A stretch of 56,956 nt of DNA from a virus (Duplodnaviria; Caudoviricetes): positions 1 to 56,956 of the IMG/VR virus record IMGVR_UViG_3300036791_000660; one strand, 5' to 3'. Of the stretch, positions 44,721 to 45,406 are shown in pieces. Made by a program: the position numbers and the translations under genes. The notes under the pieces are model-generated. The model made no database searches. It was not told the origin of the DNA and was given only the letters and a program-made list of their open reading frames with translations. Within the stretch, counting starts at the first letter, position 1; each line of letters begins with the position of its first letter.

Positions 44721-44768
44721 CACTGCACCTCATTGACAAATGTTGGCGGATGCGGTCAGTCGTCGGCA

Positions 44769-44899
44769 GCCACGGCCAGTCGCGGGATGGCAAGGCCTGT
44801 CACGGCAGCGCTAGGCAGCGCCCGTCGTGGCTCGCCACGGCAAGGCGAGTCGGGGAAGGCACGGCACGGGGAGGGACGGCTCAGCGATGGGCCGTCCCT
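44769..44899 (+). ncRNA. Stand-alone GGY-NN repeat cassette C (putative guide RNA) with 3' hairpin
   Basis: 17 in-phase pentamers (44769-44853), a short tail, and an AGGGACGGC...GCCGTCCCT hairpin; TTGACA at 44733. Confidence 0.8.
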
Positions 44900-45406
44900 T
44901 CAGTCCACCCAAGCCCGAAAAGAACTCAAATACAAACCAGTATCGACAAAACTCGGACGCCGGCCGCGCTTGGCGTAGGGATGGGCGAAGCGGTGCGACA
45001 CGCCGTGCAGCGCCGCCATCGTCGGCGTGCCTGCGATACCAACGCGCTCGACTTCGCCCTCGCTGATGAATTTGTCGAACGCGACCTTGACCTTGTCCAA
45101 GTCGGTGTCGGTGAGTTTCATGGGCTCGTCGTCACTGCCCTGCTCACCCCGCGCACCGCGCATCATCAGAGTCTCGATCTTGCCCGCCATGGCGTCGGCC
45201 ATCGCCGTGTCGATGTCGCCGACATGCACCTCGAAGAACTTTTCCATGATGCCGTAGCGGTGTTCCAAGATTCGCGCGACATCGAATGTGGTGCGCGAGC
45301 CGATCTGGGCGCGCTTGCGGCGGCGGCCCTTGCCCTTGCGGCCGACAAGGGCCGGCCCGGCGGTGCGATAGGGCTGATCGACAACACCGAGATGCAGGAC
45401 GGTCAT
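44900..45406 (-). CDS. Virion morphogenesis (neck) protein
   Basis: LHLGV.D.PY, ILE..YGIM and RPSFVDTGLY..SF.AW motifs. Confidence 0.7.
   Translation of the reverse strand: MTVLHLGVVDQPYRTAGPALVGRKGKGRRRKRAQIGSRTTFDVARILEHRYGIMEKFFEVHVGDIDTAMADAMAGKIETLMMRGARGEQGSDDEPMKLTDTDLDKVKVAFDKFISEGEVERVGIAGTPTMAALHGVSHRFAHPYAKRGRRPSFVDTGLYLSSFRAWVD

What the first reader, a model, noticed from the sequence alone, without database searches (positions are those of the whole stretch)
44733..44956. Cassette C reads the opposite strand and matches the neck gene's 3' end, with four synonymous Ser/Leu escapes
NN = AC CA GC AT AA CT AC AG TA AG CC GT TC AC AA GA GG. The + strand at 44906-44956, read skipping the wobble base, gives AC CA GC CG AA GA CT AA TA AA CC GT TC AC AA CT GG (11/17). 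As protein, guide = P-S-F-V-D-T-G-L-Y-L-V-S-F-[IM]-A-W-V and self = PSFVDTGLYLSSFRAWV. Four of six mismatches are synonymous swaps possible only for six-codon amino acids (Ser TCn/AGT, Leu CTn/TTG twice, Ser AGy/TCT). Guides A, B and D are sense to the mRNA while C is antisense, which implies a dsDNA target instead of mRNA.
Basis: partly seen in the sequence, partly recalled or inferred. Interest (0 to 1): 0.92.

Follow-up and report, generated by a model that had tools for sequence, protein, structure and literature searches.

The report
Phage VIPR guide-RNA cassette
This is a guide-RNA gene of the recently described VIPR system: a soil phage carries a repeat-coded guide that best matches a rival phage's neck gene, while its own copy of that gene is written in rare synonymous codons that spoil the match.

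Summary
At 44772-44856 there are 17 five-base units (NN + G-N-C). Their NN dinucleotides match codon positions 1-2 of the last 17 codons before the final Asp of the adjacent 168-aa neck-like gene in 11 of 17 units. No shuffle reached this, and the next best place in the window scores 7. The array stands in independent read assemblies, so it is natural.

It is not a new kind of system. It is a vrRNA of the VIPR family (three bioRxiv preprints, April-October 2026): GGY/NN pentamer repeats that read double-stranded DNA while skipping every third, wobble, base, on either strand.

Arrays of this form occur in at least 120 IMG/VR contigs, and 81 of them carry a Vipr homologue beside the array. This contig has no detectable vipr, but it begins inside an array.

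The guide fits a syntenic rival phage better (14 of 17) than its own gene. The own gene uses AGT, TTG, TTG and TCT, all rare in this genome, where the rival has TCT, CTC, CTC and AGT.

What may be new: the four dispersed cassettes each lie next to their own near-target, and escape uses six-codon amino acids.

The parts
44732..44738 (+). ATTGACA motif (-35-like) 33 nt upstream of the first matching repeat of vrRNA C
   Evidence: 7 copies in the window, 5 of them beside arrays; the TTGACA hexamer ends 32-34 nt before the first matching unit in B, C and D. No good -10 hexamer follows, so promoter function is inferred.
44772..44856 (+). Guide part of vrRNA C: 17 units NN + G-N-C (8 strict GGY)
   Evidence: Identical in Logan contigs of run X1 (record 5, 43942-47055, 0 differences) and in a 151-nt contig of run X2 (44707-44857, 0 differences).
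44857..44903 (+). 3' tail of vrRNA C, with a 14-bp hairpin at 44870-44901 that starts GGGA; its GGGACGGC stem is shared with cassette D
   Evidence: -32.4 kcal/mol, z -3.4, 0 of 200 shuffles fold as well. Also.
44906..44956 (-). Own near-target: 17 codons PSFVDTGLYLSSFRAWV of the neck-like gene, written in rare codons; 11 of 17 NN match the guide
   Evidence: (third rarest of 11,990 17-codon windows).
44900..45406 (-). 168-aa neck/connector-like structural gene (phrog_6560, function unknown)
   Evidence: (14 phage records, 31.7-36.3% identity, alignments reach residue 167-168).
44391..44723 (-). Next late gene (110 aa). In relatives its ATG overlaps the stop of the neck gene, so the 176-nt spacer holding cassette C is an insertion
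   Evidence: TGATG junction in L002, L003/L004 and L005; same in L135.
34568..34652 (+). vrRNA A guide (17 units, 12 GGY). Its near-target is 34373-34423 on the minus strand, inside the baseplate-J-like gene
40020..40094 (-). vrRNA B guide (15 units, 7 GGY), with ATTGACA at 40124-40130 and a tail hairpin at 39992-40023. Its near-target is the first 15 codons from GTG 39972 of the 623-aa tape-measure-like gene (39928-39972)
49553..49617 (+). vrRNA D guide (13 units, 8 GGY), with ATTGACA at 49517-49523 and a tail hairpin at 49623-49646. Its weak near-target is the start of ORF 48546..49490 (49455-49493)
   Evidence: (not significant ungapped).
1..541 (+). Tandem set of about seven vrRNA-like arrays at the very start of the contig. 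No target for them was found in the window

Best explanation
Cassette C is a gene for a VIPR guide RNA (vrRNA), transcribed on the + strand, antisense to the late structural operon.

Anatomy: an ATTGACA -35-like motif, then 17 pentamer units in which a G-G/N-C scaffold alternates with free NN dinucleotides, then a GGGA-initiated hairpin tail.

Mechanism, taken from the family. Vipr protomers polymerise on the RNA, bury each GGY and present the NN pairs. These pair with one strand of double-stranded DNA, skipping every third base, and form an R-loop triplex that blocks transcription.

Because C carries antisense dinucleotides, it would pair with the coding strand of the 3' end of the neck gene. 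A, B and D would pair with template strands.

The intended target is the homologous gene of rival phages of the same structural lineage. The best one found matches 14 of 17 units. A block there would sit just upstream of the capsid-like gene of the rival's late operon.

The phage's own copy matches only 11 of 17. It keeps the peptide but has switched both Ser and both Leu codons to the other codon box and changed two residues.

Steps shown here: the anatomy, the matches, the rare codons, the insertion, and the family link through array-adjacent Vipr genes elsewhere. Steps inferred: transcription of the RNA, which Vipr loads it (none is on this contig), silencing of the rival, and escape of the own gene.
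For: (1) The array is real and not a chance match. It is present in two soil runs.

A roughly 200-aa ORF family lies within 2 kb of the arrays in 81 of the 120. A profile of 32 of these ORFs hits PDB chain 36pp_D, 'SUSP1 Vipr protein', at E 2.6e-34.

(3) The published code fits: 9-16 YNNGG repeats plus a tail, a 1-nt skip at the wobble base, both strands, no PAM, a target call at >=80% NN match, and no self hit at >=80%.

(4) Guide C matches the in-frame 3' end of the neck gene of G005/L135 in 14 of 17 units (82%). G005 is a syntenic relative with 28-62% amino-acid identity over 11 structural proteins and 45% for the neck gene. The match to the own gene is 11 of 17 (65%).

(5) At all four six-codon positions G005 has the guide's codon box and the own gene has the other box.

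(6) The own 17 codons rank third rarest of 11,990 windows.

(7) Tails of B, C and D fold into hairpins with z -4.6, -3.4 and -4.6, and the stems of C and D are nearly identical.

(8) Relatives have no spacer at this junction.
Against: No Vipr homologue is detectable on the contig: hmmsearch with the 81-member model, hhalign best probability 2.3%, a six-frame search with nothing at E <= 10, and the G-loop motif absent from credible frames although 56 of 81 Vipr-cluster ORFs have it.

Only 8 of 17 spacers of C are strict GGY. The rest are GTC x4, CGC x2, GGG, GCC and GGA, whereas the papers stress invariant GGY in the SUSP1 and P. fulva clades.

The array has 17 units, above the stated 9-16.

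No canonical -10 hexamer follows the motif.

G005 was found by demanding an exact match to units 1-10, so its high score is partly selected. Two other homologue lineages (L002, L005: 10 of 17) match the guide less well than the own gene does, so 11 of 17 is not exceptionally low.

The A/T-rich wobble bases of the own target are not explained by a code that ignores the wobble base.

No target at 10 exact units was found for A, B or D.
Confidence: 0.72

Rival explanations
1. Autoregulation. The four dispersed vrRNAs are tuned, partial-match guides for the phage's own neighbouring genes, damping or timing late-gene transcription rather than attacking rivals.
For: All four cassettes lie within about 50-150 nt of their best in-window match. 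B and D cover the start codons of the downstream genes. No outside target was found for A, B or D.
Against: A rival allele fits guide C better than the own gene does, 14 versus 11 of 17. The mismatches to the own gene sit at exactly the positions where the peptide allows a change of NN, and the own codons are among the rarest in the genome, which looks like avoidance rather than tuning. The papers place functional targets at >=80% NN and report lower self-match than non-self match as the rule.
Confidence: 0.13
2. Guides born from local sequence. Each guide was generated from the adjacent gene by an unknown copying process, and the differences are later drift with no selection for escape. Adjacency then reflects origin, not function.
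For: The adjacency itself. A minority of arrays in other phages also have a significant match in their 400-nt flanks: 8 of 367 had no shuffle of 300 reach the observed score, against about 1.2 expected.
Against: Ser TCN/AGY switches need two substitutions through a non-synonymous intermediate. Yet in the significant adjacent pairs that I read in frame, 9 of the 12 positions where guide and gene specify the same six-codon amino acid are switched. The guide's odd AT unit (Ile/Met against the own Arg) equals ATC in G005, so the guide resembles a foreign allele rather than a drifted copy of the own one. Orientation is mixed: B and C are direct, A and D inverted.
Confidence: 0.1
3. Not a guide at all: a 5-nt periodic binding site for some other oligomeric protein (TRAP-like register) or a DNA structural element, with the codon match incidental.
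For: The contig has no vipr. The spacer consensus here is G-N-C rather than strict GGY.
Against: The NN matches are far beyond chance for B and C. They are in frame with the skip at the wobble base, and are repeated in L084, L108 and L114. The same array type is physically linked to Vipr genes in 81 of 120 loci.
Confidence: 0.03

Closest known systems
VIPR systems: Vipr RAMP protein plus vrRNA, type II of Escherichia phage SUSP1 (bioRxiv 10.64898/2026.04.26.720920 and 10.64898/2026.04.26.720927)
   Same: Tandem pentamers with a conserved G-G-Y-like scaffold and free NN. A structured 3' tail. The NN read a coding sequence with a one-base skip at the wobble position. Guides occur in both polarities. 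The best match lies in a rival phage and the self match is below 80%.
   Different: No vipr or vap was found on this contig. The scaffold is only 47-71% strict GGY. Guide C has 17 units. The tail is a simple GGGA hairpin, not the SUSP1 pseudoknot. Four vrRNA genes are scattered singly through the late structural operon instead of flanking vipr. The genome is 65.7% G+C and comes from soil.
Solo (orphan) vrRNAs of vipr-null SUSP1-like phages and F5 satellites (bioRxiv 10.64898/2026.10.15.759431)
   Same: vrRNAs without their own effector gene. Self-match is lower than the match to competitors, read there as avoidance of autoimmunity.
   Different: There, the solo vrRNAs sit at the old vipr-vap1 locus and target vipr, other vrRNAs, satellites or host repeats. 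Here they are inserted next to, or inside, structural genes and resemble the very gene they adjoin. Vipr-null status is uncertain here because the contig starts inside an array.
Class 1 CRISPR effector backbones (Cas7 filaments on crRNA)
   Same: A RAMP filament on a guide RNA, with thumb domains that break base pairing periodically (as stated in the VIPR papers).
   Different: Pairing is 5 bases plus 1 flipped, with contiguous 30-40-nt spacers between long repeats. There are no repeat-spacer units here and no cas genes were seen.
Free-standing homing endonuclease cassettes of T-even phages that exclude the rival allele and co-convert a resistant flank. This analogy is recalled from my own knowledge and comes from no call
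   Same: A small inserted cassette lies beside, or splits, a conserved gene. It acts on the rival's allele of that gene, and the carrier's allele next to the cassette is resistant.
   Different: Recognition here would be RNA-guided, and as far as is published it silences rather than cuts. No spread by gene conversion has been shown.

Membership tests
VIPR vrRNA | Tandem 5-nt units in which a conserved GGY alternates with hypervariable NN (9-16 units in the described clades; 'or a related consensus' in other types) | tested here: met
   17 units. 15 of 17 spacers start with G, 15 of 17 end with C, and 8 of 17 are strict GGY, against 2 of 17 on the other strand. The fit is looser than in SUSP1 and one unit longer than the stated range.
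VIPR vrRNA | Conserved structured 3' tail after the repeats | tested here: met
   A 14-bp hairpin at 44870-44901 (z -3.4). D has a nearly identical GGGACGGC stem (z -4.6) and B a different GGGA hairpin (z -4.6); A is weak (z -1.0). No pseudoknot was tested.
VIPR vrRNA | NN read a target under the 1-nt skip rule, usually a coding sequence with the skip at the wobble base, at >=80% NN match | tested here: met
   14 of 17 (82%) to the in-frame 3' end of the neck gene of G005/L135. That hit was found by requiring units 1-10 to match exactly.
VIPR vrRNA | No self-target at >=80% NN match | tested here: met
   The best own match is 11 of 17 (65%); elsewhere in the window the best is at most 7.
VIPR system | A vipr gene (small RAMP with RRM core, thumb and G-loop) in the locus | tested here: not met
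   The profile validated on PDB 36pp_D finds nothing in six frames at E <= 10. hmmsearch with 81 members gives only spurious array-overlapping ORFs. The best hhalign probability is 2.3%. No G-loop motif is present. The contig begins inside an array, so vipr may lie off-contig, and very divergent Vipr types could be missed.
VIPR system | An accessory vap gene | not tested
   I had no validated vap profile. Secondary array-adjacent clusters gave no hit in the window.
VIPR system | The vrRNA is expressed at about 100 nt and co-purifies with Vipr; the RNP binds 1-nt-skip dsDNA and silences transcription | not testable with these tools
   Needs small-RNA sequencing, pull-down, band-shift and reporter assays.
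Solo vrRNA of a vipr-null phage | vrRNA arrays present while vipr and vap are absent from the whole genome | tested here: inconclusive
   Absent from the 56,956-bp record. CheckV rates the record 100% complete, but it is linear without end repeats and its first base lies within an array.
CRISPR array | Direct repeats of about 25-40 nt separated by unique spacers of similar length | tested here: not met
   Tandem Repeats Finder shows nothing of that kind at any of the five array sites. The period is 5 nt.

The most novel reading that the evidence does not exclude
The dispersed cassettes are linked 'guide plus immune allele' modules. Each is a vrRNA gene inserted beside, or into, a conserved structural gene. 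It silences the unrecoded allele of that gene in co-infecting relatives, and the few dozen bases next to the insertion are recoded so that the carrier is spared.

This arrangement would resist separation by recombination and could spread like a homing or Medea-type selfish element.

It would also show that the wobble-skipping VIPR code, presented in print as proof against synonymous escape, can be escaped synonymously at Ser, Leu and Arg codons.

The position of guides next to their own near-targets may bear on the open question of how new vrRNA specificities arise.
Probability: 0.35. Interest if true: 0.72.

Novelty: new variant of a known kind. Interest (0 to 1): 0.55.

Why it matters

This phage adds three things that I did not find in the text I could read or search in the three VIPR preprints:

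- vrRNA genes scattered singly through a late structural operon as insertions. One insertion splits a gene that is a single ORF in a relative.
- Each guide lies within about 150 nt of the carrier's own, imperfectly matching copy of the target.
- The own copy differs from the guide mainly by codon-box switches at six-codon amino acids, in codons that are very rare in this genome.

The preprints argue that skipping the wobble base closes the synonymous escape route. Here that route appears to be open at Ser, Leu and Arg codons, which matters for the arms-race logic and for anyone designing VIPR guides.

The tight linkage of guide and resistant allele suggests selfish, drive-like behaviour, and gives a concrete place to look for how guides originate.

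Tried and rejected
Explanations considered and dropped.
- Planted or assembly artefact: rejected, because Logan contigs of run X1 cover all four cassettes with 0 differences, and run X2, from another study, holds an identical 151-nt contig over array C.
- TRAP-like 5-nt protein-binding RNA, codon or anticodon mimic, tRNA sponge, quintuplet decoding, primase sites, two-tetrad G-quadruplex: set aside once the VIPR papers were found. None of them explains in-frame NN matches.
- A self-structured RNA: apart from the tail hairpin, the array does not fold better than shuffles on the minus strand (z -0.31) and only weakly on the + strand (z -2.06).

Searches that gave nothing.
- Rfam gathering scan: 0 matches. 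tRNA scan: 0.
- blastn of 43300-46200 against phages: none.
- A sigma-70 consensus promoter in 33-51 kb: 0 found.
- Closer relatives of the neck gene: 4 viral loci at 43-52% identity, 4 metagenome loci, none in genome contigs. None of them has arrays.
- The first literature search on the strings NNGGC and similar was uninformative.
- Targets for guides B, A and D by 10 exact units: 0 each. Second half of guide C: 0. Guide C in genome contigs: 0. Guide B in G005: 0.
- Left-end arrays: no in-window or G005 match above background.
- Extending the contig leftwards by an exact 45-mer: 0.

Looking for the effector.
- One ESM Atlas call on the 199-aa early protein gave only unnamed viral neighbours.
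- PHROG and Pfam scans of 30 proteins named no RAMP.

Limits on what could be seen.
- No RNA holder is listed for this stretch, so expression could not be examined.
- Supplementary files of the papers are closed. Their tables of VIPR types, loci and self-targeting scores may already list phages like this one.
- Structure prediction, fold search and complex prediction were not used.
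Full report
**What is there.** The window is a whole IMG/VR virus record of 56,956 bp with 65.7% G+C, rated 100% complete by CheckV and linear. Genes run on the + strand to about 24.2 kb and on the minus strand after that. The finding lies in a 176-nt spacer between two late minus-strand genes. These are a 168-aa protein of PHROG 6560 (44900..45406) and a 110-aa protein (44391..44723).

**The match.** Read as xNN, the + strand at 44906-44956 agrees with the guide in 11 of 17 units. 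On the gene's own strand these are the 17 codons PSFVDTGLYLSSFRAWV that precede the final Asp and the stop codon.

**Is it chance, and is it real DNA?**
- The next best score on either strand of the window is 7.
- In 1000 shuffles of the NN order the window-wide maximum never exceeded 9.
- In 2000 shuffles scored on the 400-nt flanks, none reached 11.
- A gapped local alignment of every array against all six codon frames gave 20.0 for C and 20.5 for B, against a background of 8-12.
- A public soil run, X1, which may be the source sample, holds all 92 sampled words of 44300-45300. Its independently built contigs cover arrays A, B, C and D with no differences (table 8).
- A run of another study, X2, holds an identical 151-nt contig over 44707-44857 at depth 2.
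- The sequence is therefore natural.

**The sister cassettes.** A periodicity scan found the same 5-nt pattern at only five places: 1-541, 34.55 kb, 40.0 kb, 44.75 kb and 49.55 kb.

| Cassette | Best match | Where the match lies | Shuffles of 2000 reaching it |
|---|---|---|---|
| B | 11 of 15 | first 15 codons, from a GTG start at 39972, of the 623-aa tape-measure-like gene | 0 |
| A | 9 of 17 | codons inside the baseplate-J-like gene | 1 |
| D | 7 of 13 ungapped | start of the downstream ORF | 128 (not significant; by eye it improves with two gaps) |

- B, C and D have ATTGACA ending 32-34 nt before the first matching unit. No good -10 hexamer follows.
- All four cassettes are followed by a hairpin beginning GGGA. 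The stems of C and D are nearly the same.
- The left-end arrays have no detectable target in the window.

**What it is.**
Many hold several arrays in tandem.
- ORFs within 2 kb of the arrays form one dominant family of about 200 aa, present in 81 of the 120 loci.
- A profile of 32 members of this family hits PDB chain 36pp_D, 'SUSP1 Vipr protein', at E 2.6e-34.
- A full-text search then found three preprints on VIPR systems. Of 10.64898/2026.04.26.720920 I read the Results, the Discussion and searched passages of the Methods. Of 10.64898/2026.04.26.720927 I read the abstract and searched passages. Of 10.64898/2026.10.15.759431 I read the abstract, sections 6, 8 and 17, and searched passages.
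- These preprints report vrRNAs of 9-16 YNNGG repeats plus a structured tail. Vipr, a roughly 20-kDa RAMP, forms a filament that buries each GGY. The NN pair with double-stranded DNA, skipping one base that usually falls on the codon wobble position. Targets lie on either strand with no PAM. The outcome is transcriptional silencing of rival phages, prophages and satellites. Predicted targets are called at >=80% NN match, with no self hit at that level. Hundreds of vipr-null phages carry solo vrRNAs.
- The cassette is therefore a vrRNA gene.

**Membership.**
- Repeats, tail, a 1-nt-skip target and the absence of a strong self target are all met.
- The scaffold is looser than published: 8 of 17 spacers are strict GGY in C, 12 of 17 in A, 7 of 15 in B and 8 of 13 in D.
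- The effector is missing. The 81-member model, hhalign (best probability 2.3%), a six-frame search with the validated profile (nothing at E <= 10) and a G-loop motif present in 56 of 81 Vipr-cluster ORFs all fail to find a vipr gene in the window.
- Family scans of 30 proteins name nothing RAMP-like.
- The contig begins inside the left array, and an exact 45-mer from its start finds no other contig. So I cannot tell a truly orphan set of vrRNAs from a locus cut by the assembly.

**Target and escape.** A pattern made of units 1-10 of guide C under the skip rule hit one IMG/VR contig. The hit is the in-frame 3' end of the homologous gene (PSFVDTGLYLASFIAEIDG) and matches 14 of 17 units. Its record, G005, is 29.4 kb and rated 55% complete. 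It is a syntenic relative: 11 structural proteins align at 28-62% identity and the neck gene at 45%. It has no arrays.

Match of guide C to the homologues:

| Allele | NN match, of 17 |
|---|---|
| G005 / L135 | 14 |
| L003 group | 12 |
| L013 | 11 |
| own gene | 11 |
| L002 | 10 |
| L005 | 10 |

- At the four switched positions G005 reads TCT, CTC, CTC, AGT, which is the guide's box each time. The own gene reads AGT, TTG, TTG, TCT.
- No homologue uses TTG. Four of 5 lineages use TCN at the first Ser and 3 of 5 use AGY at the second.
- The guide's AT unit, which mismatches the own Arg, equals ATC in G005.
- In this genome AGT is 3.5% and TCT 1.3% of Ser codons. TTG is 6.9% of Leu, TTT 6.2% of Phe, ACT 3.6% of Thr, GGT 7.9% of Gly and GCT 4.5% of Ala codons.
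- The 17-codon window ranks third rarest of 11,990. The two windows above it lie at the 5' end of the ORF I annotated as 35716..37245, a start that looks mis-assigned on inspection.
- Against the escape reading: the G005 hit was selected by the search design; two lineages match the guide less well than the own gene does; and A/T-rich wobble bases are not needed to escape a code that ignores the wobble base. That last point remains unexplained. Reduced homology for recombination with rival alleles, or foreign origin of the flank, are guesses.

**Insertion and linkage.**
- In L002, L003/L004, L005 and L135 the stop of the neck gene overlaps the next ATG, so the 176-nt spacer is an insertion.
- Cassette D lies between two ORFs that match the two halves of one PHROG family: profile positions 6-308 and 316-544 of phrog_6216. 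In G005 the homologous region is a single open frame, 7049-9130. So D appears to split a gene.
- Across 367 arrays in the window plus 120 loci, 8 had a flank match that none of 300 shuffles reached, against about 1.2 expected. At p <= 0.01 there were 11 against 3.7 expected, and at p <= 0.05 there were 19 against about 18 expected. Adjacency is thus a minority feature in general, but it holds for three, perhaps four, of the four dispersed cassettes here.
- Three outside cases read in frame. In L114, 10 of 15 units match and both Ser are AG in the guide against TC in the gene. In L108, 8 of 12 match from the start codon, with Arg AG against CGA. In L084, 11 of 18 match over the last codons and the stop.
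- By my hand count over A-D, L084, L108 and L114, 9 of the 12 positions where guide and gene specify the same six-codon amino acid are box-switched.

**Most likely mechanism and rivals.** I put 0.72 on this reading: a vrRNA that, loaded on a Vipr supplied from off-contig or in trans, binds the coding strand of the neck gene's 3' end in G005-like rivals. It would block their late operon just upstream of the capsid-like gene, while the recoded own allele is spared. The rivals are autoregulation of the neighbouring genes (0.13), guides born from local sequence followed by neutral drift (0.10), and a non-guide periodic element (0.03).

**Novelty.** I did not find the following in the text I could read or search: single vrRNA cassettes inserted through a structural operon, each beside its own near-target, with escape by codon-box switching. 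My searches of the preprints found no occurrence of 'leucine' or 'sixfold' and one unrelated 'serine' in the third preprint, no 'serine' in the first, and 'synonymous' only in connection with wobble positions in the first. The closed supplements may hold more.

Noticed in passing
window 1-541 (+): About seven vrRNA-like arrays in tandem, punctuated by a recurring GGCAGG(C/T)GCGGC-like motif, start at the first base of the contig. No target for them was found in the window or in G005. A convergent ATTGACA motif at 593-599 on the minus strand, very similar to the one upstream of cassette C, points into them from the other side.
   Followed up: partly
window 48546-50623 (-), cassette D at 49490-49649: Two ORFs match the N- and C-terminal halves of one PHROG family (phrog_6216; the first half carries a NUDIX domain). 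The relative G005 has a single open frame there, so the vrRNA cassette seems to have split a gene.
   Followed up: partly
IMG/VR loci L015-L134: At least 120 viral contigs, of G+C 0.29-0.71 among those inspected, carry arrays of ten or more perfect GNCNN units, often several in tandem. 81 have a Vipr homologue within 2 kb. Further array-adjacent ORF clusters (in 22, 14, 12, 12 and 10 loci) may be accessory genes or other Vipr types.
   Followed up: partly
L084:4106-4370, L108:6167-6420, L114:5659-5914, also L106, L134, L037: Other phages also have a vrRNA array within about 300 nt of an in-frame partial match in a neighbouring gene. In L108 and L114 the Ser or Arg codons at matching positions are box-switched.
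   Followed up: partly
window 666-1457 (+): An ORF with a signal-peptide-like start followed by about 200 residues of almost pure Gly/Ser repeats, seen by Tandem Repeats Finder as GGY-rich tandem repeats at 750-1336, lies directly after the left-end arrays.
   Followed up: no
window 44906-44956 and 39928-39972: The own near-targets of C and B have G+C at the wobble position of only 7 of 17 and 7 of 15 codons, in a genome with 89.7% G+C at third positions. A code that skips the wobble base does not explain this.
   Followed up: partly
window 19935-19995 (+) and 10294-10300 (-): Two further ATTGACA motifs lie away from the arrays. The one at 19935 is followed after 17 nt by TAAATA and precedes an 85-aa helix-turn-helix-like early gene, so the motif is probably a genuine -35 element in this host.
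   Followed up: no
window 50808-55652 (-): A 1614-aa protein with no Pfam match and only a weak PHROG hit (phrog_2859). A homologue with 50% identity over 254 residues stands in the array-bearing locus L046.
   Followed up: no
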